Below, piece after piece: positions 13,249-46,660 of a DNA stretch of 64,000 nucleotides (the stretch's first letter is position 1; each line of letters begins with the position of its first letter). Made by a program: the position numbers and the translations under genes. Below the pieces are notes generated by a model. It was not told the origin of the DNA and did not search any database. It saw only the letters and a list, made by a program, of their open reading frames with translations. Origin of the DNA: Ignavibacteriales bacterium (lineage in GTDB: Bacteria > Bacteroidota > Ignavibacteria > Ignavibacteriales > SURF-24). Location of the stretch: positions 40,181 to 104,180 of the forward strand of contig QZKB01000148.1 of NCBI GenBank assembly GCA_003599415.1, written 5' to 3'.

Positions 13249-15807
13249 TTATTTCATCAAAACCATTTTTTTCGATTCTATATATGAACCTGCCCGCAAG
13301 GTGTAAAAATAAATTCCGCTTGAAAGGTTACTACCATCAAAATTAACTTCGTATTCTCCTCCCGGATTTTTTTCATTTAAAAGAACAGCAACCTCATTAC
13401 CAAGTATATCAAAAATCTTTAATGTTACATTTTGTAAAGACGGGGCATGCCCCGTCTCTACATGTGGAATTGTAAATTTTATTGTTGTGGTTGGATTAAA
13501 CGGGTTCGGATAATTCTGTGATAAGAAATATTTTTCCGGCTTGTTATTATCAGTTTCATCAACAGAGGTGCCGGTATCATTTTTTCTTCCCGGTGTACCA
13601 TAATTTAAAGAAGCCATCCAGTTGGTGGCAACCGAATTATCACTAAGCGGATCAATTAATGCAAGCGTAGCTCCTGTCCCGTCCGCTTCAACAGGCCATG
13701 GAGAATTATCATCGAAAGTAAGCGAATCAATTATTCCTAAATTCCAGTCGAACAATCTTATTTTTTCTCCGCCGTTGTTCAACCCGAAATTAAAATCGCC
13801 AAGTTTGTTTTTAACTGACGGAAATGCAAGTGAGAACTTTGCTGTATCTCTGCATACAACCAAATAATCATTCGCTTTTATTATTGTGTTGGCAGGAAAA
13901 GCAAATGTGTGAGCATCATCTTCATCTTTAAATATCCAACCGGAAATATCGGCATCAATTGTATCTGTATTGTATAATTCAAACCAGTCTTCACAATCAA
14001 GTTCCGCTGAAGGATTATAATTGATTTCGTTTATTACAACTTTGTTAGTATAATCGCTGTCTGCTTCAAACACTGCTGTAGCAGAAAAAGCGGTTTCGGT
14101 TGGTAATGTAATAGTTTCCTTGTTGCCTCCTTCAATTCCATTCCACTCCTTAAATTTATAACCCGGTTTAGCTATTGCGGTTAATGTTACGGGATTTCCT
14201 TTATAATAGAATCCGTACCATGGAAATGAATTAAGCTCAAGCGAATTTAATTTTATCTTTCCTGCTGTCGCATCGGAAAGATTCAGGTAAACAAGCAACG
14301 TTGAATTAATCTTAAATTGATCTTTAAAAAATCCGGACAGGTAACCGATTCTCTCATCTGCAAATTTTTCAAGTTTTGCTACATTAGCGTTCCAGTTGTC
14401 AATATCGCCGCCCCATCGTTCAATGTGTTCAGGCATTTCCTTTTCAATACCTGTTTTCAACCTTTTGATAACTTTCTTAACGTTCTCTGCTTTAAATATT
14501 GTATTTGAAAAATCTGCAAACCGATTGATAAAACTTGTTTTAAATTCTTCATTAAGCAATAACCGTCTTAATAAGAGAGTAGACCATGGCGGATTTGGCC
14601 AGCTTGGTCCGTTTGCTTCCAAAGCAAATTTCAGAGTATTGTGTGTGGCTCCCTGATTGAAAAGACCGAACCCGAAATCTGTATCGTATAAAATCCATCG
14701 CCACTTGCCGTCGTCTTTCTGCGGTCTCCAGAATTTAATATTGTTACTCGGCCAGTCTGTATTTCCAAAATATATCTCGGCAATTGTATAATTAATAAAC
14801 TCATCCACATCCATTCTTAATTTTACAAACTCATAGTTAAGTTGCTGGCTCATATCTTTCTTGGAAATAAAATCCAGCAGGGCTTTGTAATGAGAATTAC
14901 TTCCTTGTATTACAGTTGCGTTACCTTCAAGAAGGTCAAGACTATCCGGGTTAACGTTGTGGTGCGATGCAAGGTAATGCTCATTTACTTTTTCGCGGAT
15001 GTTATGGATTCCCCAGTACTTTCCGTTCAGGTAAACAATGGCGGGGCGGTAAGCAAGCATATCAATATCTTTATTCCTTACGAGAGTATGCATTAAACCG
15101 TCTCTGAACAAAGTATAACTCCAGTCGTTCCCTCCATTACGGAGAATAAAGCTCTCGAACTTATCAATCTCAAGATCAGGGAAGATTTGATATTTTATTT
15201 TTCCGGTGCCGTAAGTGTTGCGTGCAAAAACAGCAAGTGACTTTTGCGGCTGTGCCCTGCTCCAACCACCAAATATTTTTACTCCTGCATCAATACTAAA
15301 GGCCTGTGTTCCATCCGGTTCATACATTTCAATATGGATTGGCTTTTCCCAATCCTGCCAGAAGTTTGCGCCGAAGTTTGGGTTTGCTGTTTCTGCACTG
15401 TCACCCAGGACGTAGATTCCAAAATCATTATCCCAGAGATTAGGCGGATTTGTTGTAATCGATACGGTTGGCAGATCCGTTGGATTGTTTATTATATATG
15501 TGTTTGTAATTGTATTGCTTGATGTTGTATCATTTAAAAAAGATTTGGCTCTTACAACGGTTGTTTTATTTAAAGTGATTGGCGAATTGTATTTATATGA
15601 TTTTGTTGTCGGCTCTGAGCCGTCGCTTGTAAGATAAATTTTTTCATCCGGTGAGTTTGATGTGATGGACAAGGAAACCGGGACGTTAAATATTCCGCCA
15701 TTGATAGAAAAAACAGGCGGCTGCAACGTTGTATTATTTTGTCCAATGATATTATAGTTTAAAATAACTGTAAGAAAACAAGTAACCGATATTAGAAAAC
15801 TTTTCAT
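13249..15807 (-). CDS. T9SS-secreted CotH-family kinase with N-terminal Fn3-associated/CHB_HEX-like domain and lamin-tail domain
   Basis: YLTSDGSEPT; YLNGKYWGIHNIREK; NTDWPSNN (catalytic-loop-like); YDTDFGFG; LTD motifs VVINEINYN and DWFELYN; T9SS CTD. Confidence 0.85.
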   Translation of the reverse strand: MKSFLISVTCFLTVILNYNIIGQNNTTLQPPVFSINGGIFNVPVSLSITSNSPDEKIYLTSDGSEPTTKSYKYNSPITLNKTTVVRAKSFLNDTTSSNTITNTYIINNPTDLPTVSITTNPPNLWDNDFGIYVLGDSAETANPNFGANFWQDWEKPIHIEMYEPDGTQAFSIDAGVKIFGGWSRAQPQKSLAVFARNTYGTGKIKYQIFPDLEIDKFESFILRNGGNDWSYTLFRDGLMHTLVRNKDIDMLAYRPAIVYLNGKYWGIHNIREKVNEHYLASHHNVNPDSLDLLEGNATVIQGSNSHYKALLDFISKKDMSQQLNYEFVKLRMDVDEFINYTIAEIYFGNTDWPSNNIKFWRPQKDDGKWRWILYDTDFGFGLFNQGATHNTLKFALEANGPSWPNPPWSTLLLRRLLLNEEFKTSFINRFADFSNTIFKAENVKKVIKRLKTGIEKEMPEHIERWGGDIDNWNANVAKLEKFADERIGYLSGFFKDQFKINSTLLVYLNLSDATAGKIKLNSLELNSFPWYGFYYKGNPVTLTAIAKPGYKFKEWNGIEGGNKETITLPTETAFSATAVFEADSDYTNKVVINEINYNPSAELDCEDWFELYNTDTIDADISGWIFKDEDDAHTFAFPANTIIKANDYLVVCRDTAKFSLAFPSVKNKLGDFNFGLNNGGEKIRLFDWNLGIIDSLTFDDNSPWPVEADGTGATLALIDPLSDNSVATNWMASLNYGTPGRKNDTGTSVDETDNNKPEKYFLSQNYPNPFNPTTTIKFTIPHVETGHAPSLQNVTLKIFDILGNEVAVLLNEKNPGGEYEVNFDGSNLSSGIYFYTLRAGSYIESKKMVLMK
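13434..13461. repeat. 28-bp GTAG-type REP-like palindrome (1 mismatch) inside the CTD coding region
   Basis: GTAAAGACGGGGCATGCCCCGTCTCTAC; encodes VETGHAPSL in frame. Confidence 0.85.
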
Positions 15808-15824
15808 GAATGTACACCAGAATT

Positions 15825-16496
15825 TTAAAAATGTTCTTCGTCAAAAAAGAGATTTATGTGCTCAATGCCGACAATATTTTTTAAGTCTCTTAAAAACTCA
15901 TTGTTTTTATCTTTATTCCGCAATTGGACGTAGTAGGACAATTCCAATCCCTCTTCGCTGCCGAGTGATTTAACGTTGATCAGTTTATAGCTTTTACAAT
16001 ATTTCTTTATCACTTTCTGATACGGAACTTCATTTGAATCATCTGTGTAGTAAAACTGCAGCAGGTATTCTTCACGTGTTGAGGGGAGTGAGTTGAACTT
16101 TGACAGTGCAAGCAGAACGACCCCAATAAAGATTGTTCCGGCAATTGCTATCGACAATAATCCAACGCCTGTTGCCATACCGATTGCGAGCGAGTAAAAA
16201 ATAAAAACTATATCGAGAGTATCCTTAACCGCGGTTCTGAATCTTATAATAGACATTGCTCCGACTAATCCAAATGCGCGGGCAAGATTATTTCCTATTA
16301 CCATAATTACGATTGTGGTTATCAGTGACAAGGTAATCAGGGAAATTACAAAGGAATTTGTGTAGCCGGTGCCCTTGTAAGATGTCTTGTAAAAGAAAGC
16401 AATTATTAACCCGCACAAAAACGAAACAATTAAATTTGCAAAGACATCGCCGAACGAAACTGAGAAATTAACAATACCTTGAAATTCCCGGGACAT
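15825..16496 (-). CDS. DUF4956 membrane protein (about 4 TM helices plus a soluble ACT-like C-terminus)
   Basis: Hallmark IGNNLARAFGLVGAMSIIRFRTAVKD; hydrophobic N-half; starts 2 bp after the VTC gene stop. Confidence 0.85.
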   Translation of the reverse strand: MSREFQGIVNFSVSFGDVFANLIVSFLCGLIIAFFYKTSYKGTGYTNSFVISLITLSLITTIVIMVIGNNLARAFGLVGAMSIIRFRTAVKDTLDIVFIFYSLAIGMATGVGLLSIAIAGTIFIGVVLLALSKFNSLPSTREEYLLQFYYTDDSNEVPYQKVIKKYCKSYKLINVKSLGSEEGLELSYYVQLRNKDKNNEFLRDLKNIVGIEHINLFFDEEHF

Positions 16497-16498
16497 TT

Positions 16499-17290
16499 TC
16501 AGATAGCTTCCTTACGTGAGATTTTATCCTTCCAAACCGGGTTGCCCAGAGCAAGAAATTTTTTATTTGACGTTGGTCTCAGTTCTTTATCGGCATCAAT
16601 GCAAATTGAATATTTTGAAACTGCTAACCGTATTAACTGGAATTTATTAATGATCTTTGAGAAGTGTTCCGGAAAGCCCTGGTAAAACTTCATCTCAAAC
16701 ACGAAATGATTTTTAATTGCAGGCTTCAGAATATTATCTTCATACAAATCGGCAAACAACGGAAGGGAGTAGTACCTTAGATTTTTGTCAAAAGTTATTC
16801 TGATGTTAGTGTCGAACCTGGAAAAGTATGCTTCACGTTCATACACAACAAGAGAGATCGGTTTTAATAATTTTTTGTTAACGTGGAAAAAGAATCTTTG
16901 TGCGTTTTTAATTGAATCCGCATCACTTTGAATTATGTAACTATCAAGATCGCCGGTATAAAAAATATCATCAAGATTTTTATAGTAAATTTTTGAGCGA
17001 TGCTTGTCAATAAAATTTTCTCTTTTCCTTTTTATCTCAAGAAATACAACGCAGTCGTCCATAAATTTATTATAACCGCGGATTCTTAATTTCTTGCGGA
17101 TTTTCAATCCTTCAATCTTTTCATGGTAAAAATCAAGATTGGGTGAATCGTAATAAATACTTCTAACAGTATATTGATTATTCTCGCAGGCCGAAGCAAA
17201 TCTATCTGTTTCCACGAACGGCAACATTTCATTGCGGATATCGTCAAGATATTTATTTGGCACAAGATATTTATATTCCCGGCGCAGCAA
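16499..17290 (-). CDS. VTC-domain (CYTH-like) polyphosphate polymerase domain protein
   Basis: RREYKYLV, YTVRSIYYDS, KLRIRGY, VFLEIKRK, YEREAY, RITFD, FEMKF, SKY motifs; TTG start with an AGGA-like RBS. Confidence 0.85.
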   Translation of the reverse strand: MLRREYKYLVPNKYLDDIRNEMLPFVETDRFASACENNQYTVRSIYYDSPNLDFYHEKIEGLKIRKKLRIRGYNKFMDDCVVFLEIKRKRENFIDKHRSKIYYKNLDDIFYTGDLDSYIIQSDADSIKNAQRFFFHVNKKLLKPISLVVYEREAYFSRFDTNIRITFDKNLRYYSLPLFADLYEDNILKPAIKNHFVFEMKFYQGFPEHFSKIINKFQLIRLAVSKYSICIDADKELRPTSNKKFLALGNPVWKDKISRKEAI

Positions 17291-36728: not shown

Positions 36729-36757
36729 AAACAAAGGAACACGCCGAAGCGTGTTCC
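36729..36757 (-). terminator. Intrinsic terminator after the PorV-like gene
   Basis: Minus strand GGAACACGC-TTCG-GCGTGTTCC then TTTGTTT (C-UUCG-G tetraloop). Confidence 0.75.
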
Positions 36758-36787: not shown

Positions 36788-37819
36788 TTAAAAAGTTATA
36801 CCCACAGTGAACTTCTGGATATCTTTAAGTCTTCCAAAATCCTGGTAGGCATAATCAAAACGTAAACCTAAGTTACCAAGCACTTCCTGCTTTACACCAA
36901 CTCCAAGCGTCAATCCGCCTTCAGCATCTTTTTGGAAAAGTGAGGAGTAACCACCGCGTAAAGCGATAAGATTCATAAACAGATATTCTCCGCCTATATT
37001 TACGCATTCATAGTTATCGCTTGGATGCATAGCATCAACTGCCACTGTTAATTTATTTTGTTCGTTGAATTCTGCCGTATAGCCTAATCCAACTCTGAAG
37101 TTTAACGGCAGTGACCAGGATTGAGTTTCAAGGTAAGCGGGAATCTGATCATTATTGCCTCCGCTTGTTAAATCAAGATCAACAAGAATAAGGTTAGAGT
37201 TTCCGCTTAACTGCATCTTTGTTCCGAAATTAGTAATTGCTGCCGCAAGTATAATTCCTGCAAACGGAGTTCTGTACTGAACACCGATATCCATTGCGAA
37301 TGCTGTTGCTCCCATTTTCCATAAAGACTGGTAAACAACTTTAGGATTAAAACCGATGCAGAAATTATCCGTAAGGTTAATTGCATAAGCAAGACTGAAT
37401 GAAACATCTCTTGCAGAAAATGTTTCGCCGGTGCCATTTGGTTCTTCAATTGTGGTTACATTCATTTCTCCGTAATTGGATGTTGTAAAGCTCATACCAA
37501 TTACTCCGAGATCACCAAGATTGTAAGATGCTGCAAGGTAGTTATAGCTTACATCTGCAAGCCATTTTGTATGATCGAATATAATTCCGAAACCTGAAGT
37601 CTTTGCAAGACCAGCAGGGTTCCAGAACATTGCGCTCTGGTCATCGGAAACACTTACAAAAGCGCTGCCCATAGCGGTTGCTCTTGCACCCTGTGCAATA
37701 GAAAGAAACGGGGCAGCCGTTGTACCTTTTTTAGAAACATCTGAAACAAAAAGCTGAGCAAATGTAGCAGATGCAGTAAAGAAAATTAAAAGTATTGTGA
37801 TATTAAATTTATTTTTCAT
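36788..37819 (-). CDS. PorV/PorQ-family (FadL-like) outer-membrane beta-barrel
   Basis: Signal peptide; FLSIAQGARATAMGSAF; FWNPAGLA; LPLNFRVG; ALRGGY; FDYAY; C-terminal FTVGITF. Confidence 0.88.
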   Translation of the reverse strand: MKNKFNITILLIFFTASATFAQLFVSDVSKKGTTAAPFLSIAQGARATAMGSAFVSVSDDQSAMFWNPAGLAKTSGFGIIFDHTKWLADVSYNYLAASYNLGDLGVIGMSFTTSNYGEMNVTTIEEPNGTGETFSARDVSFSLAYAINLTDNFCIGFNPKVVYQSLWKMGATAFAMDIGVQYRTPFAGIILAAAITNFGTKMQLSGNSNLILVDLDLTSGGNNDQIPAYLETQSWSLPLNFRVGLGYTAEFNEQNKLTVAVDAMHPSDNYECVNIGGEYLFMNLIALRGGYSSLFQKDAEGGLTLGVGVKQEVLGNLGLRFDYAYQDFGRLKDIQKFTVGITF

Positions 37820-37832
37820 TTTTTCATCTCCT

Positions 37833-40800
37833 TTACTTTATTACCGCAAATTTGCCGATGTGTTCGCCAATACCTTCCGCTTTTACGTGGAATATATATA
37901 CACCGTAAGCTATGTCCATACCATCTTCCGTAACCATGTTCCAGGTAAGGGCACCATCCATTGGCGATGTATCTTTGTAAAGAGTTTTAACAAGTGCACC
38001 GGCCATTGTATAAATTCTTACTTCACATTTTGCAGGAAGGTTTATAAATGAAATCTTGCGTTCGCCTCTGCCTGTAGAATTAAGGTTAATTCTTTCCCAG
38101 GTAGCTGCACCAAGGTATGGATTAGGTACAACAGAAATTTTTGATAATTCCTGGTTAGCTTTATTGTTATCCGTTGCTGAAGGAGAAATAGAGTATGAGA
38201 AGTAATCACCTTCATAGAACGGTTTAGAAATTCTTAATAGGAATTTATCGCCTGCTCCCGGAATATTAGGAGTTGCATTAGGATCTAGTGGTCCATTATA
38301 ACTTATCTTCCATGCAATTCTTGAATTACCGACTGTTTGTGCACCTATGAATTCGAGTATCTGAATTTCATCTCCGATAGTTAAGCTGTTTGAGTTATCA
38401 AGATCTCTTATTGCGAATTTACTTTTAAGACCCGTGAATAAATTTGTTATTTTGAAATTGACAGGCATTTTAACATAGAACTGTGGAAGCGCACTTATAA
38501 AACCTGTATCCTGTGGCGAATCGAAAAATTCTATCTGATAATCATTTGGCCAAGGGACTCCTCTGCTAGTTGCATCTGCAGAAACAGCAAGATCCAAATT
38601 GCTGTCACCGGTTAACCAGTTGGTTTGGTCAACTATCGGCAGAATAGTGGTATCGTTAATTACAGATATTACCATTCCATCAAAAGCAGGAGTTGGTCTG
38701 TTGGCACCAATGTTAGAAGTGTCAAGATCTGAAATTAATGTAGAATCTTTTCCGTTAAGAATACGGTGAACACTGAATTTACTTGTTTCGTAGTTTGGCA
38801 TTGTTCCGGTAGAATTAAATACTACACGGTATTCAGCACCCAAAACAATCTGTGAAGGATCAAGAATCTCAAAAGATAATTTTCCTGTGCCCAAACCGGA
38901 AGTAACTTTATTGGGGTCTCCAACGAAACTAGGTGGAATGTACCCGGCAGAAGGTGCATTTGGTGTAATAACAGCACAGTTGATATCTACAAATTGTAGA
39001 TTACCGGCAAAGTCTTCTGTGATTATTTTTGTACACTCAGTAGGCTGCAAACCTTTGGTTCCATATTGCGGGTCACCCATATCATATGAGACTACTGCAT
39101 AATAGTATCGTTGCCCGTTATTAACGGTAGTATCTTTATAGCTGTGTTGTAAACCCGTTTCATTTCCACGCCAGAAATGTGCACCGTTTATACCAACCGG
39201 ATCAGGTCCTTTAAGGCTATCAATAATATCAAACTGGGCTAAAGGTTTCCAGTATTTCGGATTTCCTTTGGAATCGGTAATAATTTTTACATCGTTAAAG
39301 GCAGCCTCGGTACTTCTGTAAACCATGTATCCTTCAAAGTCTTTCTTATAACCTTTGGTAGGGTCATTATCTTCGTACCCAAGAAATTTGTCAATTGATT
39401 CTTCAGCCTTATTATCCCAGAATAAATAAACTGCACCATCACCCGGAACGGCTGTTAATTTTGGCTTGTTAGGCGGCTTGGAAAAATTATAGTTGGCATT
39501 ATAAATTTCCTGGATAGTTTCTTTATTAAAGATAAGGTCTTCTATATTATTGCCGAACATAAATGCCATTGAGAATCTTTCTCTTTTGCTCTTTTGTAGA
39601 GGGAAAGGTCCGGATGCAAAAACAATACTGATATTGGAATTCTGGAGAGAAGTATCGAATGTACCTGCAACCATTTTCATCCACATTGGTTCGTCATCTT
39701 TTGGCCAGCCACCTCCAACACCACCGTCTCCAAGTCTGTAAATTGAAACCGCAGTTAATCCAATCTGATCAGATTCATCTTTATCTGTCTTATCAACATT
39801 AGGTTCACCCGGGAATTCAGTTGCAATGGGGTAAGCGCCGCTTGTAGGTATTCCGTCACCTTCACCCTGGTCTGGTCCTGTATAACCATCATCCAAAGGA
39901 CCAACGCCGTCTAAACCAAGGTCATCATTCAATGGTTCATTTAGATCGCCATCCCACTTTCCGTTGCTATTAATATCTGAAAATCCGAGCCAGTCATTAT
40001 CATTATCAATACCATCATCTCTTGTTTCATTTAAAAGACCGTCTTCGTCGTTATCGGTATTATCCAAAGCATTGCCCGGGCTTTCAAGGTAAGCATAACC
40101 GTACAGGCCGGTAATCCACTGGTCGGGCACGCCTTTCCCGTTTCCATCGTATGCGTAAACAATATCAAGCCTTGTATCAAATGAAGCGCAATCGTCACCG
40201 GAATCATTTGTGCCGCCAACACCGGGGTCAGTATAGAATCCGAATGCTGCATCGCTATAGTCATTATCAGAAATATTAACAATATCAAAATGTTGAAAGA
40301 GTATATTTTCAGCAAGTACGTGAGACCATTGAAAACCTCTTGTTTCTACACGAACTCCCAAGCCGCCGCGTAAAGTATCGGATGCGATTGGATTATACAT
40401 ATAAGGTTTTCTCTGGAATTCTTTGTCTTTGGAATCATCCATAACGAAGAATGTTTCAAAATCCGAGTTTGTAATTCCTTTACCAAAATAACCGCTCCAT
40501 TTACCTGCCCATCCCGGATCGTTTAAGTCGGTCATTTTATCGGGCCAGTAATCGGGCCAGGATTGTTTATCTGTGTTAATTGCTGGTTTGGTATAAGTCG
40601 CATTAAAATAGCCGGGGACTGGAGTTAACGTCCAGAGCTGACCTGTTACAGGATCTTTATCAACCCATTCCCTGTAATAAGTTTCCAGAGGATGAATTTT
40701 CTGGCCTGTTCCCGGTGCAGTAACTTCCGCTGCAATAAGAACGCAAATACCATCTTCGTAAGAATGCCCGGAGTATTTTGGCCACTCTCCGGATGGCTGA

Positions 40801-41006
40801 TTTGGCCAATGACCAATCTGCGCAGTATTGTCAAATAAAGTTCTTATCTGGTTACCATCCATAACTGTTTCTCTTCTGTAGGAGATATCGCCTTTAGGTT
40901 CATTGCGGTAAAACTGTGTCAGGTTATCTACCTGAGAATAGAAAGCAGGTGGGACAATAAGAAATAAAAATAGAATTAAATATTTTTTTGTCATTTTTTT
41001 CTCCAA
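37833..41006 (-). CDS. Large secreted protein of unknown function with Asp-rich Ca-binding-like repeats, an FN3 domain and a variant (VVPNPY) T9SS CTD; partner of the TonB receptor
   Basis: 1057 aa; signal peptide; GEWPKYSG; DNDEDG/DGIDNDND/DLGLDGV repeats; PPNKPKLTAVPGDGAVYLFWD; DFEGYMVYRS; C-terminal ISVVPNPY...FINLP...IYTMAG...AYGVYIFHV...KFAVIK. Confidence 0.75.
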   Translation of the reverse strand: MEKKMTKKYLILFLFLIVPPAFYSQVDNLTQFYRNEPKGDISYRRETVMDGNQIRTLFDNTAQIGHWPNQPSGEWPKYSGHSYEDGICVLIAAEVTAPGTGQKIHPLETYYREWVDKDPVTGQLWTLTPVPGYFNATYTKPAINTDKQSWPDYWPDKMTDLNDPGWAGKWSGYFGKGITNSDFETFFVMDDSKDKEFQRKPYMYNPIASDTLRGGLGVRVETRGFQWSHVLAENILFQHFDIVNISDNDYSDAAFGFYTDPGVGGTNDSGDDCASFDTRLDIVYAYDGNGKGVPDQWITGLYGYAYLESPGNALDNTDNDEDGLLNETRDDGIDNDNDWLGFSDINSNGKWDGDLNEPLNDDLGLDGVGPLDDGYTGPDQGEGDGIPTSGAYPIATEFPGEPNVDKTDKDESDQIGLTAVSIYRLGDGGVGGGWPKDDEPMWMKMVAGTFDTSLQNSNISIVFASGPFPLQKSKRERFSMAFMFGNNIEDLIFNKETIQEIYNANYNFSKPPNKPKLTAVPGDGAVYLFWDNKAEESIDKFLGYEDNDPTKGYKKDFEGYMVYRSTEAAFNDVKIITDSKGNPKYWKPLAQFDIIDSLKGPDPVGINGAHFWRGNETGLQHSYKDTTVNNGQRYYYAVVSYDMGDPQYGTKGLQPTECTKIITEDFAGNLQFVDINCAVITPNAPSAGYIPPSFVGDPNKVTSGLGTGKLSFEILDPSQIVLGAEYRVVFNSTGTMPNYETSKFSVHRILNGKDSTLISDLDTSNIGANRPTPAFDGMVISVINDTTILPIVDQTNWLTGDSNLDLAVSADATSRGVPWPNDYQIEFFDSPQDTGFISALPQFYVKMPVNFKITNLFTGLKSKFAIRDLDNSNSLTIGDEIQILEFIGAQTVGNSRIAWKISYNGPLDPNATPNIPGAGDKFLLRISKPFYEGDYFSYSISPSATDNNKANQELSKISVVPNPYLGAATWERINLNSTGRGERKISFINLPAKCEVRIYTMAGALVKTLYKDTSPMDGALTWNMVTEDGMDIAYGVYIFHVKAEGIGEHIGKFAVIK

Positions 41007-41017
41007 ATCAATAGTAT

Positions 41018-43738
41018 TTAGAATCCAAATCCAAAACCGATACGGATTTCTCTTGGTGTAGAATACATACTTGGATCCTTTACGTATTGTTCAATTGTAT
41101 TTAAACCGATTACTTCTACCGGACTGAATCTGTAACCCAAATCTGTAGTAGCTCTGCCGGTTGTACTGTAAACGCCGAATTCATTCTTTATATCGAGTAC
41201 GTTATATACAAGCAGGAATGTATTGATATTTATTCCAAGAACATTAAATGTTTTATCGGCACGAAGATCAAGGTTGTAGAATTCGGGTCTTACACCACCG
41301 TTTTCAAACCTAACGCCTTTGGAAACACGTGTGTCTTCTGTGTATGGTGTTCCGCTTCCGTATTGAAAAATTAATCCGATTGTCCAGTCTCCGGGTTCGC
41401 CGACTGTAACAGAAGCATTAAATGTATTTCTCTGATCCCAGTTCAAAGGAACTACAACTTTAGTATCTTCTACAGGAGGATCTGTTTGGTTATTGTTAAA
41501 TACAGTATTCGGATCTGAAGAATTTCCTTCGGCAATCTGGAAAGTATAATCTAACTTGAATCCGAAATAATCTGAAAATCTTTTGTCAACCGTTATAATA
41601 AAACCTCTTACATTTCCGTAATCCCTATTGATATATCTTGCGAATCTTACTGCATCATAAGTTTTAAGTATTTCCATACCAAGCAGGTTTCTAATGTCTC
41701 TGTAATATGCAGTTACATCAAGAGCAAGGTTCGCGAACAAAACCTGTTGTAAACCTATTTCGTATTGTACTGTCTTCTGAGGTTTAAGATCAGGATTACC
41801 AATAATAGAGTTTAACTGGTCCTGTCCTTGCGGAACATAATAATCCGGATTTGTATAAAGATTTTCGAAACTTGGTATCTGGAAGAAATGACCGTATGAG
41901 AACCTGATAATTCCCTGATCTGTAATTGGGAATGATGCACCGAGACGAGGGCTGACCTGGAATTTTTTGGAAGCGTCTTTCAGTATAAAATTTCCGTTAG
42001 CGTCAACACCGGGAAAGTTAATGTTTTTATCCACGTTCTTTAAATCAACAGGTATTTTTGAATTGGGATCAAAATAATCAAAACGGATACCGGCATTAAT
42101 AATCATAATATCGTATTCCATCTTATCCTGAATATAAGCTGCAAACTCCATTGGTTTACGTACATAAAGTATGTTACTGCCAATATCTGTAATTACATTC
42201 AGATTCGGATAACCGGGTACAAATGGAATGTAGCCGGTGCTATCTGCAATACCGACACTTATTAAATCATTGCTGTGGTTATATATCTTATGGAATCTTC
42301 CTTCTGCTCCAATACCAATCTTATGTTCCTTTGATATTTGAGAAGATAACGACCACTGTGCTATATAAGTCTGTGTGTTTCTTTCGTACCTGTTTCCTTC
42401 ATTTCCACCTGACCTGAAAGTATATCCGCTTAATGCGAGTCCCTGCCGTGGATCTACGTAACGTGGATCGAAAGGATCTTCGTACCTGTTCCCCCAGTAT
42501 TTATAAATAGCGGATGAGAATTTTAAAGTTTGGAATGTACTCTGAGAAGGATAATGTGAAATCTGCAGATTATGGATCATATCTGTTCTGTGATGAGCCA
42601 TCTTACCATCGGGTGTCCAGGAATAATAATGATCATAATATTTATTGTAGTTGTCATCCCAGAATAAGCTATAGCTGAATTTTAATGTTGGCAGAACATA
42701 AGTTAATTTTCCGTTAAAGGAGTATTTTCTTGAGGGATCCATCGCAACATATTCACCATCACCGGTTGCAATAGGAATAAATTCTCCGTCAGGAAGCTGA
42801 ATTGGAGCAATATCTGTTATATTGTAAACTCTTTTTCCATACATATGTCCGTCTTCCTGGTAGTAACGGCCGGTAACAAAAAAGAAAAGATTATCAATTG
42901 GTTTTGCCGGTCCGCTGAAACTAAACTGTAAATTTTTTGTGGGTATGCGAAAAACTTTACCGAGATTCTGAAATAAATCCTTATGTGCTGTTACAAAATT
43001 ACCGACGTACCCACTAACTGTTCCTTCAAATTTATGCGAACCGTCTTGTGTTACAATGTTTACAATTCCTGACATTGCCTGGCCGTACTCTGCATTGAAT
43101 GTACCGCTTATAACTTCCATCTGACGGATAGAAGTATTCTCTACCTGCAACACAAAGCTATTATTAAAAGCGTCTGTAACAGAGACTCCATCAACAAGAT
43201 AAGAAACCTCATTACTACGACCTCCCCTAAAGTGACCGTCCATAACACCGGCCTGCAGATTGACAAGCTGTCCAACGCTTTCAACAGGCATCATTTTAAT
43301 TTCACCGGCAGAAATTGTTGCGGATGTAGATGTTAAATCTTTTTGAACCAGCGGGCGCTCTGCCTGAACAACAACTTCCTTTGTTTGTAAGGCAGTTGAG
43401 TTCAAATTAACATCAAGCTTTGTTGTTAAATCAATTTTAATTTCTACGTTTTCCACAATGGTTTTCTGGTATCCTATTGCGGTTATAATAACACGGTACT
43501 CGCCGGGCGGAATATTATTAATATAATAGTAACCCTCCACATCTGCGGCAGCACCCAGGTATGTTCCTTCAATAACAATGTTGGCACCAACAACAGGTTC
43601 TTTGTTTTCATCATAAATCTTACCTGAAAGTTTTCCTGTTGTTCCTGCCTTAAGGATAATTGTTAAAGAAAGAAAGATAAAAAGTAAATATTTAGTCAAT
43701 TGTTGAATTCGTACAGAGGATTTCAACTTTACCTCCAA
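41018..43738 (-). CDS. TonB-dependent receptor with N-terminal CarboxypepD_reg-like domain (non-SusC type)
   Basis: GTTGKLSGKI...GANIVIEGT; EVVVQAER; plug HFRGGRSNEVSYLVDGV and SGTFNAEYG; SPRLG; GNPDLKPQKT; C-terminal PREIRIGFGFGF. Confidence 0.93.
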   Translation of the reverse strand: MEVKLKSSVRIQQLTKYLLFIFLSLTIILKAGTTGKLSGKIYDENKEPVVGANIVIEGTYLGAAADVEGYYYINNIPPGEYRVIITAIGYQKTIVENVEIKIDLTTKLDVNLNSTALQTKEVVVQAERPLVQKDLTSTSATISAGEIKMMPVESVGQLVNLQAGVMDGHFRGGRSNEVSYLVDGVSVTDAFNNSFVLQVENTSIRQMEVISGTFNAEYGQAMSGIVNIVTQDGSHKFEGTVSGYVGNFVTAHKDLFQNLGKVFRIPTKNLQFSFSGPAKPIDNLFFFVTGRYYQEDGHMYGKRVYNITDIAPIQLPDGEFIPIATGDGEYVAMDPSRKYSFNGKLTYVLPTLKFSYSLFWDDNYNKYYDHYYSWTPDGKMAHHRTDMIHNLQISHYPSQSTFQTLKFSSAIYKYWGNRYEDPFDPRYVDPRQGLALSGYTFRSGGNEGNRYERNTQTYIAQWSLSSQISKEHKIGIGAEGRFHKIYNHSNDLISVGIADSTGYIPFVPGYPNLNVITDIGSNILYVRKPMEFAAYIQDKMEYDIMIINAGIRFDYFDPNSKIPVDLKNVDKNINFPGVDANGNFILKDASKKFQVSPRLGASFPITDQGIIRFSYGHFFQIPSFENLYTNPDYYVPQGQDQLNSIIGNPDLKPQKTVQYEIGLQQVLFANLALDVTAYYRDIRNLLGMEILKTYDAVRFARYINRDYGNVRGFIITVDKRFSDYFGFKLDYTFQIAEGNSSDPNTVFNNNQTDPPVEDTKVVVPLNWDQRNTFNASVTVGEPGDWTIGLIFQYGSGTPYTEDTRVSKGVRFENGGVRPEFYNLDLRADKTFNVLGININTFLLVYNVLDIKNEFGVYSTTGRATTDLGYRFSPVEVIGLNTIEQYVKDPSMYSTPREIRIGFGFGF

Positions 43739-43929: not shown

Positions 43930-43965
43930 AAAAAGAGAAGAGACAATCTTTACGATTGCCTCTTC
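43930..43965 (-). terminator. Probable intrinsic terminator/attenuator between the 891-aa gene and the TonB receptor
   Basis: + strand GAAGAGACAATC-TTTAC-GATTGCCTCTTC (43937-43965), followed by TCTTTTT on the minus strand. Confidence 0.6.
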
Positions 43966-43984: not shown

Positions 43985-46660
43985 TTATTTAATAAGCATC
44001 ATTTTTTTTGAGCTCTGGAAGCCTTCAGTGTTAATCTGGTACATGTAAATACCGCTTGATAAGCCTGAAGCATCAAAGTTTACATTATAAACACCTGAGT
44101 TTTGATTAGCATTTACTAATTCTTTTACTTGTCTTCCAAGTACATCATAAATCTTCAATGTAACAAAGCCAGGTTTCTCAAGTGTGTACCTAATCTGTGT
44201 TGTCGGGTTAAACGGATTAGGATAGTTCTGTGATAATTCGTAAGACAACCTTTTAACGTCTTTATCGTTAACACCTACTGTCCATTGGTCGCCAATCCAG
44301 GTATACGTCCAGCGAGCGGTCGTACTCCATGAATTATCGTCGTTTAACGGAGAATAACAAAGGATTCCTTCTCTATCATTAGGACCCTGAGGGCTGTCAT
44401 TATCGTTAATTGAAAAGTCGATTGGTATTCTCATTCCTCTCTGAGGAACAAACACGTCATCCATAGTTGTTGCACCGGCATTACGTTTTGTAGCAATATC
44501 CTGCCAGGAAACTCTTGCTTCTACAGTATAACCTGTTGGGAATTTTTCACCCCAGAAGTAGTCAGCCGTACCAGGTAATAATAAAGAATCGCTGCTTTGA
44601 CCATCAAAGAATCCTCTATTCTTAGAGAAGCGGAAATGATAATCAGGGGTAGCACCTCTTCTGTAAACACCGTGCGGTTCGCCATGCCAATCATATAAAC
44701 CGATGAAAAGATCCGGGCAATCGCTAAGGTAAGAAGCAATTTCACTTTCCGGTCTAACTGCAATAACATCATCTTCAATATCAAAAGCAACATAGAGGTA
44801 TTGTTGATCTGCTGCTAAATAAGCAATTACCTTTAAGTCAGCATCGCCGTCAATAGCTGTGTTAGGAGCAATAAAACCTGAGCCGTCAGTAACAGACATA
44901 ACAATAGGAGTAATATTAGCCCATTCGGTTAATACGCCATCTGCAACAAATGTAGTTGTCGGAGCATGATCAATATCAATTACAGGAACACCTTTTGCTG
45001 TATTGGTAATAGGTGTTGAAAGAGAAACCGGTAAACCAACATTTCCTACTCTATCTGTAGCATTAACAGCATAATAATAAGAAACAGGCTGATCTGTTAA
45101 AGGTGCTCTTAAAATATGTTCTGCAAGCTGAGTGTTTTCCGGAACGTTTAAGGCAGCAACTTCAACGTCTGCCGCAGTAAGATCTGTGATTGGATTAAAG
45201 CTATAATAAACATCATAAGTTTCTTCTGATTCACTTGGTACATCACTCCAGGTTACTAAGTTTGAATAAGTACCTGCAACTCCAAGTAATCCTTCTGGTG
45301 GATTTGGAGCAGTAACATCGGTTTCTCTATAACCAACAGGTGACATTAAATCAAGTAAAATAGAGCCAGAACAAATTTCACCCTGAACATAAGGAGCATC
45401 TGCTGAACCTGAGAATTCAATTTTCCAGGCGGCAATTTTATCTAGGTTTAATACACCATCACCATAGTTTCCGGAGTTCCATGAAGGTACGGTGAATCCT
45501 TTTGTACTTAGTGTACCAAGGCCAACACCAAGATCTTTCAAAGGAATTTTAATCATCTGCCATTCTGTATTTGCAGTATATAGATCGATTGGAACAGTCA
45601 TCTGCCAGGGTTCGCTAGTTCCGGAACTTTCATCATATAAGAAGAATCTGAAAGTAACACGGTTTGCAGCTCCTGTTGTTGGAGTAACAACTTTATAATA
45701 TAAAAGAAGGTCGGTGTTTGAAGTCAAATCCTGCATGAAAGTACCATCTGCAAAATCATGCTGAATGTTGACATAACCTCCCCAGCTTTGGCTGTTGTTT
45801 ACGGTGAAGTCATATTTCAAAGAGGAATAACCTTCGAATGGGTGGTCTGTAACATCAGTTAAAGTAATTGCTCCTTTTCCTGCATCACCAGCCCATTCCA
45901 TTTGATCAATTGCATTAAAATATCCATTGGTAGCAGTAGAGTCGAAAGTTGTGATTGCGGGATATGCAGTACCAAGAAACTCTAATTTATCAAAAATAAC
46001 GGTACCGGTTGCCTGGCCGTTATCCGCGATACCTGGAGTTTCAAATTCAAAAACGTAACCGACAATTTTATCGAGATCTAATGTACCATTGTTAGTTGTG
46101 CCTGCCCATCCGGGTAATGAAAAACCTTCATTATTAGGACTGCCAGCACCCCTGTCTACAAGAGGAATTATAAGATAATTCCAACCAGGGGCAGCATCAT
46201 AAACTATTGTACCGGCATTAAAATACCAGCTTTCATGGTCTGCATTACTTGCCCAGTAATTTGCGCTTCCACCGGCGTCAAATATTTGCATTCTTAATTC
46301 AACCTGACCCGGTTTACTTGACGGGGTTACGTTATAATACCATAACCTTAAAGCGGCAGCTCCGCTCCAGTCAATATAGGTTGAATCTTCCTGTGGCACA
46401 GTATAATTCATAAAAGAATAACCGCCCCAACTTTCAGTTGAGTGTACAAGCCAGTCAATTTTCAAGGCTCCGGGGCCGTCATAAACGGGATCAGTAATAT
46501 CCGTAAAAATCAGCGAGCCATCACCAGTCTGTGCTCCATCAGCCGGAGCATGAACAAAGAAAGAATCCGCTGTAACGGTATCAAATCCATTTACTATCCA
46601 CTGGGCTTGAACCATTGTTGCGAAGGACAATAGGAAAAGAACTATAGAAAGTTTTTTCAT
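43985..46660 (-). CDS. T9SS-secreted non-catalytic glycan-binding protein (two CBM11/CIA30-like repeats, FN3, CBM9/DOMON-like domain)
   Basis: Two repeats (SWGGY...IPL.D.G...GF..P.W...G.L.LDKI); FN3; ADGVLTEW...YLYVAFDIEDD...GYTVEARVSW...DFSINDND; CTD; strong AGGAG RBS. Confidence 0.7.
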   Translation of the reverse strand: MKKLSIVLFLLSFATMVQAQWIVNGFDTVTADSFFVHAPADGAQTGDGSLIFTDITDPVYDGPGALKIDWLVHSTESWGGYSFMNYTVPQEDSTYIDWSGAAALRLWYYNVTPSSKPGQVELRMQIFDAGGSANYWASNADHESWYFNAGTIVYDAAPGWNYLIIPLVDRGAGSPNNEGFSLPGWAGTTNNGTLDLDKIVGYVFEFETPGIADNGQATGTVIFDKLEFLGTAYPAITTFDSTATNGYFNAIDQMEWAGDAGKGAITLTDVTDHPFEGYSSLKYDFTVNNSQSWGGYVNIQHDFADGTFMQDLTSNTDLLLYYKVVTPTTGAANRVTFRFFLYDESSGTSEPWQMTVPIDLYTANTEWQMIKIPLKDLGVGLGTLSTKGFTVPSWNSGNYGDGVLNLDKIAAWKIEFSGSADAPYVQGEICSGSILLDLMSPVGYRETDVTAPNPPEGLLGVAGTYSNLVTWSDVPSESEETYDVYYSFNPITDLTAADVEVAALNVPENTQLAEHILRAPLTDQPVSYYYAVNATDRVGNVGLPVSLSTPITNTAKGVPVIDIDHAPTTTFVADGVLTEWANITPIVMSVTDGSGFIAPNTAIDGDADLKVIAYLAADQQYLYVAFDIEDDVIAVRPESEIASYLSDCPDLFIGLYDWHGEPHGVYRRGATPDYHFRFSKNRGFFDGQSSDSLLLPGTADYFWGEKFPTGYTVEARVSWQDIATKRNAGATTMDDVFVPQRGMRIPIDFSINDNDSPQGPNDREGILCYSPLNDDNSWSTTARWTYTWIGDQWTVGVNDKDVKRLSYELSQNYPNPFNPTTQIRYTLEKPGFVTLKIYDVLGRQVKELVNANQNSGVYNVNFDASGLSSGIYMYQINTEGFQSSKKMMLIK

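What the first reader, a model, noticed from the sequence alone, without database searches (positions are those of the whole stretch)
36788..43738. SusD-less uptake module: TonB receptor + 1057-aa T9SS protein + private PorV-like barrel
Seen: three genes with 11- and 13-bp gaps, bounded by hairpins at about 43950 and 36745, at the centre of a glycan locus with no SusD-like lipoprotein. The middle protein has no recognisable catalytic motif, carries Asp-rich repeats, and has a CTD unlike the other ten. Established: Bacteroidota PULs use SusC with a lipoprotein SusD lid, and PorV binds CTDs at the cell surface. Inference: here a T9SS-exported protein is held by its own PorV paralog through an uncleaved variant CTD and caps the receptor. 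This would be an alternative 'utilisome' architecture for non-Bacteroidia FCB lineages that, to my knowledge, has not been characterised experimentally.
Basis: partly seen in the sequence, partly recalled or inferred. Interest (0 to 1): 0.85.

Follow-up and report, generated by a model that had tools for sequence, protein, structure and literature searches.

The report
TonB receptor with barrel-anchored surface partner
Three co-transcribed genes in an Ignavibacteria-type genome encode an outer-membrane importer, a secreted sugar-binding-type surface protein and a small barrel predicted to hold that protein by its tail; this module is repeated about 25 times in the genome, is conserved across several related phyla, and looks like an undescribed counterpart of the SusC/SusD nutrient-uptake pair.

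Summary
Three same-strand ORFs, bounded by two terminator-like hairpins, encode a TonB-dependent receptor, a 1057-aa protein with no Pfam family, and a PorV/PorQ-family barrel. They sit in a beta-glucan locus.

The module is not private to this locus. The genome holds 29 proteins with this special C-terminal domain (CTD), against about 236 with the ordinary type A CTD. Of the 29, 25 cluster with both a receptor and a PorV-family barrel. Housekeeping PorU, PorV, PorQ and PorZ are encoded elsewhere. No SusD was found.

In 80 related loci (Ignavibacteriota, Kryptoniota, Calditrichota, Rhodothermales and others), the barrel follows in 71 of 74 loci with room and the receptor precedes in 63 of 68.

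The middle protein models as a galactose-mutarotase-like supersandwich head (Z 20), an Asp-rich insert, Ig/FN3 domains and a PorZ-like CTD. A second, sequence-unrelated class has the same head fold. A complex prediction docks the CTD on the barrel (0.93, best control 0.00).

Best reading: a T9SS-exported, barrel-anchored ligand-binding partner of the receptor, analogous to SusD or a surface glycan-binding protein. Contact with the receptor and CTD retention are untested. I found no published description.

The parts
43937..43965 (-). Terminator-like hairpin that ends the preceding gene (a CBM9 protein with a type A CTD). It marks the upstream boundary of the unit.
   Evidence: 12-bp stem, T-rich tail; sequence
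41018..43738 (-). TonB-dependent receptor, 906 aa as the maximal ORF; the probable start is TTG 43726 after a GGAGG. It has an N-terminal carboxypeptidase-regulatory-like domain, a plug and a barrel. It is not in the SusC/RagA family.
   Evidence: (TIGR04056 67.3 bits against cut-off 368.25)
37833..41006 (-). 1057-aa secreted surface protein; the probable start is ATG 40994. It has a signal peptide without a lipobox Cys and belongs to no Pfam family.
39477..40907 (-). Head domain, residues about 34-510: galactose-mutarotase-like beta-supersandwich fold.
   Evidence: Z 20.0 to 9ju0, rmsd 3.1, 267 aligned; Z 18.4 to 1lf6; Z 18.3 to 6ggy; model pLDDT 85.6
39762..40079 (-). Asp-rich insert in the head, residues about 310-415, probably calcium-binding. 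It contains DxDxDG-like repeats with invariant acidic residues.
   Evidence: mostly coil with pLDDT 43-78. The calcium-binding reading is an inference from motif resemblance that I recall, not from a call.
38187..39464 (-). Stalk of Ig/FN3-like beta-sandwich domains, residues about 515-940.
   Evidence: fibronectin and Ig arrays; weak Fn3-like hit, E 0.039
37836..38144 (-). Variant, PorZ-like C-terminal domain, residues about 955-1057. Predicted docking element.
36788..37819 (-). 343-aa PorV/PorQ-family outer-membrane barrel. It is a paralogue distinct from the housekeeping PorV and PorQ and is the predicted anchor for the CTD.
36736..36757 (-). Terminator-like hairpin that closes the unit.
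   Evidence: 9-bp stem, 6 GC, T tail; sequence

Best explanation
The three genes form one copy of a multi-copy outer-membrane nutrient-capture module.

Proposed mechanism:
1. [quoted passage not shown]
2. It is not handed to housekeeping PorV for cleavage by PorU. Instead its PorZ-like CTD docks on the extracellular face of its own PorV/PorQ-family barrel. The protein therefore stays non-covalently anchored at the cell surface, as PorZ stays on PorQ.
3. Its supersandwich head, with the Asp-rich (probably Ca-binding) insert, sits on an Ig/FN3 stalk. It binds the substrate of the locus, here probably beta-glucan oligosaccharides made by the neighbouring secreted GH16 and GH9 enzymes.
4. It delivers that substrate to the co-transcribed TonB-dependent receptor, which imports it.

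Functionally the protein replaces SusD or the SusE/F-type surface glycan-binding proteins, in a lineage where those are absent or rare.

Shown: gene anatomy, family memberships, folds, paralogy and synteny conservation. Predicted only: CTD-barrel docking. Inferred: CTD retention, sugar binding and cooperation with the receptor.
For: 1. Unit structure. The genes are separated by short gaps and lie between two hairpins.

2. Own genome.
- 29 proteins carry this CTD class, scoring 85-151 bits on its profile and at most 36 on a type A profile. About 236 proteins are type A.
- 24 of the 29 have a PorV-family gene directly adjacent. One search found 22; C30 and C38 were missed by my overlap filter and are placed by the coordinates.
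- 24 of the 29 have a TonB receptor within 1.3 kb.
- 25 of the 29 have all three genes in one cluster.

3. The housekeeping set is encoded elsewhere: PorU and PorV on C40 (988.8 bits; 263.6 against cut-off 250), PorQ on C52 (247.4 against 220) and PorZ on C34 (358.7 against 260). The module barrels reach neither equivalog cut-off.

4. Synteny in 80 loci from other genomes. The barrel lies directly downstream in 71 of 74 loci with at least 1 kb of room. The receptor lies directly upstream in 63 of 68 loci with at least 2.5 kb of room.

5. The three genes diversified together. Mantel r is 0.85 (receptor vs barrel), 0.82 (receptor vs CTD) and 0.75 (CTD vs barrel); 0 of 2000 permutations reached these values, across 22 modules.

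6. Fold. The head is a supersandwich, as in the N-domains of GH15, GH94, GH65 and GH116 enzymes. A second module class (721 aa) shares only the CTD by profile comparison yet has the same head fold (Z 19.1 to 7w2t).

7. CTD.
- Its closest solved structure is the PorZ CTD.
- The genome's own PorZ CTD scores on the module profile but not on the type A profile.
- It is about 100 residues long. The passages I read in PMC11285876 give 96 and 108 residues for the uncleaved PorZ and PorU CTDs, against 67-88 for cleaved ones.

8. Complex prediction, barrel plus CTD: ipSAE 0.93, 0.93 and 0.92, with a best control of 0.00. The mark was reached by 58 of 80 solved complexes and 2 of 110 mismatched pairs. 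The runs agree in at least 86% of contacts, and partner pLDDT is 77.

9. Context. This module and others of its class sit beside GH16/GH9, GH53, GH26, a PF10091 glucoamylase-like protein and CBM9 proteins.

10. No SusD was found in this genome.
Against: - No result bears on contact between the middle protein and the receptor.
- Co-diversification of adjacent genes is expected from duplication of whole units and does not show binding.
- PorV complexes are in the PDB (6h3i and 8gl6-8gln). The high complex score may therefore reflect likeness to solved structures rather than specificity of this pair.
- Structural likeness to the PorZ CTD does not prove retention. The passages read in PMC11285876 state that a cleaved CTD (mirolase) is also closest to the PorZ and PorU CTDs.
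- The supersandwich fold is itself catalytic in aldose 1-epimerases (Z about 13). The GH174 fucanase entry, which may or may not use this domain catalytically, also matches (Z 14.3). An enzymatic role is therefore open.
- SusD and the family show no complementary distribution. SusD hits occur in 10 of 34 genomes with the family and in 9 of 27 without.
- Only 4-5 of the 11 other same-class modules sampled have an obvious glycoside hydrolase or CBM within two genes.
- The genome is a draft with 7.31% contamination and near-duplicate contigs (C6/C161 at 92% identity; C109/C130). The count of 29 is probably inflated by 2-3.
Confidence: 0.55

Rival explanations
1. Anchored enzyme. The anchoring is the same (CTD on its own barrel), but the supersandwich head is catalytic: a new glycanase, lyase or epimerase that trims the polymer at the mouth of the receptor.
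For: The fold is the catalytic domain of aldose 1-epimerases (Z about 13). The GH174 endo-fucanase entry 9k1g also matches (Z 14.3 and 13.0); whether its catalysis uses this domain I did not check. Invariant polar and aromatic residues lie in the head: W150, W170, R223 and Q226.
Against: No match to any Pfam or NCBIfam enzyme family. The top structural matches are the non-catalytic N-domains of multi-domain enzymes whose catalytic (alpha/alpha)6 part is missing here. The locus already encodes several secreted glycoside hydrolases.
Confidence: 0.15
2. Dedicated secretion shuttle. The barrel acts like PorV for one cargo: it collects the cargo at the translocon and hands it on. The protein is then released or LPS-linked, and its linkage to the receptor reflects only co-regulation within a substrate locus.
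For: The barrel's only solved relative by sequence is the shuttle PorV (E 4e-20). The predicted interface uses the extracellular loops. A PorV-like binding mode is my reading of those positions, not a superposition.
Against: A single housekeeping PorV serves about 236 type A cargoes, so a private shuttle for each of about 25 cargoes needs a reason. The CTD class is nearer to the retained PorZ CTD than to type A. The strict receptor-protein-barrel order is kept in 63 of 68 and 71 of 74 distant loci, which argues for more than co-regulation.
Confidence: 0.15
3. The module is not a nutrient importer. It is instead a surface adhesin or coat unit, or a signalling receptor pair, and the receptor works in sensing or in export.
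For: Half of the sampled neighbours are not carbohydrate-active: an arylsulfotransferase-like protein, PPIases, an ABC-2 transporter and phosphoglucomutase. The 721-aa class is unusually conserved, at about 55% identity across phyla.
Against: The receptor has a standard plug and TonB-receptor barrel. This copy lies inside a regulated glycan locus together with an inner-membrane symporter. I noticed no anti-sigma or other signalling domain among the Pfam hits, but I did not test for one.
Confidence: 0.07

Closest known systems
SusC/SusD (RagA/RagB) pairs and the 'utilisome' of Bacteroidia polysaccharide utilisation loci
   Same: A TonB-dependent importer gene is followed directly by a gene for a surface-exposed, non-catalytic partner. 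The pair is multi-copy per genome, sits in regulated glycan loci, and the copies have diversified together.
   Different: The receptor is not in the SusC/RagA family (67.3 bits against cut-off 368.25). The partner is not a lipoprotein and does not have the helical SusD fold; it is a beta-supersandwich on an Ig stalk. It is exported by a T9SS-type CTD and needs a third gene, a PorV-family barrel. A lid function has not been tested.
PorZ-PorQ of the Porphyromonas gingivalis T9SS attachment complex
   Same: A T9SS-secreted protein whose CTD is retained and bound to a dedicated PorV-like barrel (review passages). Here the CTD is closest to the PorZ CTD and is predicted to dock on a PorV/PorQ-family barrel.
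   Different: These genes are not orthologues. PorZ and PorQ proper are encoded elsewhere in this genome. The module protein lacks the PorZ beta-propellers, matching only the C-terminus (18.5 bits against cut-off 260). It is linked to a TonB receptor and is present in about 25 copies.
Type B CTD proteins with cognate PorP/SprF barrels (e.g. SprB/SprF, PG1035/PorP)
   Same: A cargo gene is clustered with its own PorV-like barrel gene. The barrel is proposed to anchor the cargo, and the CTD is probably not cleaved (review passages).
   Different: The CTD is not type B: no PF13585 hit for this protein at E<=0.01. The barrel matches PorV (PF19572) and NF033709, and PorP_SprF is not among its hits. 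The cargoes there are adhesins, not receptor partners.
BamG-BamH in the Bacteroidota BAM complex
   Same: A 14-stranded FadL/PorV-like barrel packs against another barrel and holds a surface protein by its extracellular loops (passage read in PMC12578637). This is a precedent for a PorV-like barrel acting as a fixed anchor beside a large barrel.
   Different: The partner barrel (BamA) and the function are different. The barrel here matches the BamG model only weakly (22 bits against cut-off 250).
N-terminal supersandwich domains of GH15, GH65, GH94 and GH116 enzymes and aldose 1-epimerases
   Same: The fold of the head domain (Z 17-20, 235-278 aligned residues).
   Different: No detectable sequence relation and no attached catalytic domain. 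The head carries a large Asp-rich insert and is displayed on the cell surface.

Membership tests
TonB-dependent receptor | Plug domain plus a 22-strand receptor barrel, above Pfam cut-offs | tested here: met
   PF07715 29.9 bits (cut-off 23.9); PF00593 99.4 bits (cut-off 27)
SusC/RagA (TIGR04056) | Full-length match above the curated cut-off | tested here: not met
   67.3 bits against 368.25, covering only residues 36-160. No SusC-type chain among the PDB sequence hits.
SusD/RagB | Match to a SusD Pfam family | tested here: not met
   0 Pfam families for the middle protein. PF07980, PF14322 and PF12771 gave 0 hits in the genome.
SusD/RagB | Lipoprotein signal peptide with Cys | tested here: not met
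   The N-terminal 25 residues contain no Cys.
SusD/RagB | Sits as a lid on its receptor | not testable with these tools
PorV/PorQ family (NF033709) | Match above the subfamily cut-off | tested here: met
   235.8 bits against 90; PF19572 43.3 bits against 27; PDB PorV 6h3i at E 4e-20
PorV proper (NF033710) and PorQ proper (NF033711) | Equivalog cut-off reached | tested here: not met
   95.5 bits against 250 and 114.6 against 220. The genome's true PorV and PorQ score 263.6 and 247.4.
PorP/SprF | Match to the family model | tested here: not met
   Not among the barrel's Pfam or NCBIfam hits at E<=0.01
T9SS type A CTD (PF18962 / TIGR04183) | Match to the curated models | tested here: not met
   No hit at E<=0.01. 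The own-genome type A profile gives 20.3 bits against 144.2 on the module-CTD profile. The fold is still the CTD beta-sandwich.
T9SS type B CTD (PF13585) | Match to the curated model | tested here: not met
   No hit for this protein at E<=0.01. Two paralogues give sub-threshold hits of 18-19 bits.
PorZ (NF052228) | Full-length equivalog match | tested here: not met
   18.5 bits against 260, covering residues 949-1056 only. The true PorZ is on C34.
Retained (uncleaved) CTD class | The CTD is present on the mature surface protein | not testable with these tools
   Only indirect support: likeness to the PorZ CTD and a length of about 100 residues
Galactose-mutarotase-like supersandwich fold | Structural match covering the domain | tested here: met
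   Z 20.0, rmsd 3.1, 267 aligned residues (9ju0); 15 further chains at Z 15 or more. The model is predicted, not solved.

The most novel reading that the evidence does not exclude
The triad is a general, T9SS-dependent alternative to the SusCD utilisome. In many non-Bacteroidia members of the FCB group, each TonB-dependent importer has a supersandwich 'lid' protein. That lid is exported by the T9SS and held over the receptor by a dedicated PorV-like barrel packed against the receptor barrel. Lipoprotein export and the SusD fold would thus be replaced by secretion plus barrel anchoring. This would be a third use of PorV-like barrels, as fixed subunits of uptake machines.
Probability: 0.3. Interest if true: 0.85.

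Novelty: new variant of a known kind. Interest (0 to 1): 0.74.

Why it matters
SusCD pairs are the textbook explanation for how Bacteroidota capture glycans. How their sister lineages (Ignavibacteria, Kryptonia, Calditrichota, Rhodothermales, KSB1, WOR-3 and others) feed their many TonB receptors is largely unannotated.

This module is large and entirely 'hypothetical' in the databases. The search gave 4566 homologues among its 8000 scored candidates. One search gave 595 cluster representatives at E<=1e-30.

If the reading is right, three things follow:
- Locus prediction for these phyla gains a marker equivalent to the susCD tandem.
- The role of PorV-like barrels extends from secretion to nutrient uptake.
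- The T9SS becomes a prerequisite for import, not only for enzyme export.

Cultured relatives carry the genes. The Ignavibacterium album orthologue is 65% identical, and a Melioribacter roseus locus is L087. The idea can therefore be tested directly.

Tried and rejected
- Full-length Foldseek against the PDB was dominated by generic Ig/FN3 arrays with TM-scores of 0.06-0.18. Apart from the PorZ top hit it was uninformative. The per-domain picture came from VIA-align.
- I looked for a complementary distribution of SusD and the family across 61 genomes of the class. I found none: 10 of 34 against 9 of 27.
- PorV-family match counts per genome are 7-29 where the family is present and 2-7 where it was not found. 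Matches are not copy numbers and the genomes are related, so I use this only as description.
- The look-up of sequencing runs listed no RNA holder. Co-transcription could not be examined and read laying was not used.
- A receptor-plus-head complex prediction was not possible because of the size limit and the single job. Structure prediction takes only one chain.
- Pfam scans of 10 other middle proteins gave no family above its cut-off.
- The protein atlas returned only unnamed clusters.
- The PDB profile search gave only weak CTD hits: PorU at E 0.033 and PorZ at E 0.14.
- The C-terminal part of the PorZ model also picks up ordinary type A tails in this genome. I do not count that search as evidence for PorZ-likeness.
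- Literature searches found no description of a receptor / CTD-protein / PorV-like triad: PorV with TonB-dependent and Ignavibacteria (0 papers). These searches cover only the held open-access library. Supplements were not seen. The M. roseus genome paper (passages) describes a true SusCDE operon, not this module. The C. abyssi paper (passages) mentions only vitamin receptors. PULDB (passage) reports susCD tandems in some Ignavibacteriae.

Full report
**1. Observation**

The window carries three ORFs on the minus strand: 41018-43738 (906 aa), 37833-41006 (1057 aa) and 36788-37819 (343 aa).
- The gaps between the maximal ORFs are 11 and 13 bp.
- The likely true starts are slightly inside these ORFs. 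The receptor probably starts at TTG 43726, after a GGAGG. The middle gene probably starts at ATG 40994, because a public record begins at residue 5.
- Two terminator-like hairpins lie at 43965-43937 and 36757-36736 on the same strand. They are the longest stems found and they bracket the three genes.

Family assignments:
- The first protein is a TonB-dependent receptor with a carboxypeptidase-regulatory-like N-domain, a plug and a barrel. It is not in the SusC/RagA family (67.3 bits against cut-off 368.25).
- The second protein matches no Pfam family.
- The third protein is in the PorV/PorQ family (235.8 bits against cut-off 90). It reaches neither the PorV nor the PorQ equivalog cut-off.

The surroundings form a regulated glycan locus: two GH16, GH9, GH2, GH3, GH125, CE2, CBM9, CBM4_9, an SSS symporter and a sensor kinase with its regulator. 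Ten of these proteins carry type A CTDs.

**2. The module is repeated in this genome**

One search places the window in a 5.03-Mb draft of 173 contigs (88.5% complete, 7.31% contaminated).

Searching it with the middle protein and with the PorV-family model gave many hits lying side by side. I then called ORFs in the laid genome and built two C-terminal-domain profiles, which separated two classes:
- 29 proteins score 85-151 bits on the module-CTD profile and at most 36 on a type A profile.
- About 236 proteins are type A.

Gene neighbourhoods of the 29 module-CTD proteins:
- 24 have a PorV-family gene directly adjacent. One search found 22. Two more, on C30 and C38, were hidden by my overlap filter and are placed by the coordinates.
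- 24 have a TonB receptor within 1.3 kb.
- 22 show the canonical order receptor-protein-barrel.
- Three are rearranged (C8, C60 and the second C2 copy).
- One is cut by a contig end (C83).
- One is dispersed over 7 kb (C4).
- Two stand alone (C98, C105).

Near-duplicate contigs (C6/C161 at 92% identity; C109/C130) mean that 2-3 of these copies may come from a second strain.

The housekeeping T9SS surface set is separate:
- PorU, followed by PorV, on C40.
- PorQ on C52.
- PorZ on C34.

No SusD family member was found with three Pfam models.

**3. Conservation elsewhere**

Size of the family:
- The middle protein has 4566 homologues at E<=0.001 among the 8000 candidates that search scored. All named ones are 'hypothetical', including Ignavibacterium album proteins at 65% identity.
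- It has 4062 cluster representatives at E<=0.001, of which 595 are at E<=1e-30.

Synteny in 80 loci from species genomes. These are labelled Ignavibacteriaceae, Melioribacteraceae, Kryptoniota, Calditrichota, Rhodothermales, Neomarinimicrobiota, Stahlbacteria and others. Some MAG labels may be unreliable.
- A PorV-like gene lies directly downstream in 71 of 74 loci with room.
- A TonB receptor lies directly upstream in 63 of 68 loci with room.

Sample of 61 genomes of the same class:
- The family was found in 34.
- SusD was found in 19.
- Both were found in 10, so the two systems are not mutually exclusive.

Within this genome, the pairwise distances of receptors, CTDs and barrels from 22 modules are strongly correlated (r 0.75-0.85; 0 of 2000 permutations reached these values). 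The three genes have therefore been duplicated and diverged as a unit. This is what a functional module predicts, but it is also what plain tandem inheritance predicts.

**4. Anatomy of the middle protein**

An AlphaFold2 model built on 50 homologues has pLDDT 85.6 and pTM 0.77.
- **Head (residues about 34-510).** A galactose-mutarotase-like supersandwich. The best matches are the N-terminal domains of a dextran dextrinase (Z 20.0, rmsd 3.1, 267 aligned residues), glucoamylase (Z 18.4) and laminaribiose and cellodextrin phosphorylases (Z 18.3 and 18.2).
- **Asp-rich insert (residues about 310-415).** It lies within the head, is mostly coil and holds ten invariant acidic residues in DxDxDG-like spacing. 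I read this as calcium-binding by resemblance; that recollection is not a test.
- **Stalk (residues about 515-940).** Ig/FN3-like sandwiches.
- **C-terminal domain (last ~100 residues).** A CTD-type sandwich whose best solved match is the PorZ CTD (Z 12.6, rmsd 1.9, 94 residues, 29% identity).

A second module class (721 aa, about 55% identical across Ignavibacteria, KSB1 and Rhodothermales) shares only the CTD with the first class by profile-profile comparison. Its model (pLDDT 85.7) nevertheless shows the same supersandwich head (Z 19.1 to the GH116 N-domain), followed by an FN3 domain and the CTD. Head plus stalk plus special CTD is thus the common design of the module's middle gene.

**5. 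The tail and the barrel**

- The module CTD is about 20 residues longer than the window's type A tails.
- The genome's own PorZ CTD scores 28.3 bits on the module profile and 0 on the type A profile. The PorU CTD scores 57.3 on type A and 30.9 on the module profile.
- In the passages I read, a T9SS review states that the PorZ CTD is retained and binds PorQ. It proposes that cognate PorV-like barrels protect CTDs from cleavage, as also suggested for type B CTDs with PorP/SprF.
- A structural paper gives 96 and 108 residues for the uncleaved PorZ and PorU CTDs, against 67-88 for cleaved ones. It also notes that one cleaved CTD is structurally closest to PorZ and PorU. Likeness is therefore suggestive, not proof.
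- A complex prediction of the barrel with residues 935-1057 scored 0.93, 0.93 and 0.92, with a best control of 0.00. The mark was reached by 58 of 80 solved complexes and 2 of 110 mismatched pairs. At least 86% of contacts were shared between runs, and partner pLDDT was 77.
- The contacts involve the barrel's N-terminal segment and all extracellular loops, and conserved CTD strands.
- Because PorV structures are in the PDB, this pass shows that the pair looks like a PorV-CTD complex. It does not show that this pair binds.

**6. Mechanism**

The best-supported reading has three parts:
- The middle protein is exported by the T9SS.
- It is kept at the surface by its CTD sitting on its own barrel, in the manner of PorZ on PorQ.
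- It uses its supersandwich head to bind the locus substrate for the adjacent TonB receptor, in the manner of SusD or SusE/F.

The glycan context supports a carbohydrate ligand for this class:
- This copy sits among secreted GH16 and GH9 enzymes.
- Other copies sit beside GH53, GH26, a PF10091 glucoamylase-like protein and CBM9 proteins.
- Only 4-5 of the 11 other modules sampled show such neighbours within two genes.

A precedent for a PorV-like barrel acting as a fixed subunit beside a larger barrel is BamG, which holds BamH on BamA (passage).

Three things remain open:
- Whether the CTD is truly retained.
- Whether the head is catalytic.

**7. Novelty**

All three components belong to known superfamilies, and cognate barrel anchoring is known for PorZ/PorQ and for type B CTDs with PorP.

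What I could not find described in nine searches of the held library is the conserved, multi-copy coupling of such a cargo-barrel pair to a TonB receptor. That coupling would be a SusCD-like module. I therefore rate this as a new variant of a known kind.

It has high practical value for annotating the non-Bacteroidia FCB lineages, and it can be tested directly in cultured Ignavibacterium or Melioribacter.

Noticed in passing
G000 contigs C41:26279-27934, C57:10950-12743, C30:30742-32457, C8:12430-13845 (loci L140, L142, L148, L154): A 470-600-aa protein with a PPIC-type PPIase (SurA/PpiD-like) domain is encoded directly beside four other modules of the same class. It may be a periplasmic chaperone acting as an optional fourth component. 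The window's copy has none.
   Followed up: partly
window 43985-46660 (-); also L145 (C38) and L153 (C8): A CBM9 protein with a type A CTD lies immediately upstream of the receptor gene in the window and in two other modules. This neighbour recurs and may be a secreted glycan-binding or glycan-degrading accessory.
   Followed up: partly
G000 C6:67648-73336: A tandem run of five weak PorV-family ORFs (64-85 bits each), unlike the module barrels and not next to module-CTD proteins.
   Followed up: no
G000 C111:5940-11633 and C120:380-5698: Two very large proteins (1897 and 1772 aa) match the N-terminal two thirds of the PorU sortase model at 261 and 232 bits, below the cut-off. They carry CTDs that score intermediate between type A and module type. 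They may be PorU paralogues.
   Followed up: no
window 13249-17290 (-): A CotH kinase-like protein with a type A CTD sits next to a VTC-domain protein and a DUF4956 membrane protein. This cluster is unrelated to the glycan genes around it.
   Followed up: no
window 5743-10002 (-) and 1962-3635 (-): ORFs of 1419 aa and 557 aa with no Pfam family at E<=0.001.
   Followed up: no
G000 C6/C161 and C109/C130: Near-duplicate module copies lie on different contigs (92% protein identity for C6 vs C161). This fits the 7.31% contamination estimate or strain heterogeneity, so copy counts are slightly inflated.
   Followed up: partly
control genomes: The PorV/PorQ family model matches Bacteroides thetaiotaomicron above its cut-off. 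A passage read in PMC11285876 says Bacteroides spp. are the notable exception lacking T9SS core genes. The match may be the BamG-type barrel described; that link is my guess.
   Followed up: no
L079-L158 region: G000 C86:6899-9781 (L139): The closest paralogous module (54% identity) is flanked by an arylsulfotransferase-like beta-propeller protein with a type A CTD, not by a glycoside hydrolase.
   Followed up: no
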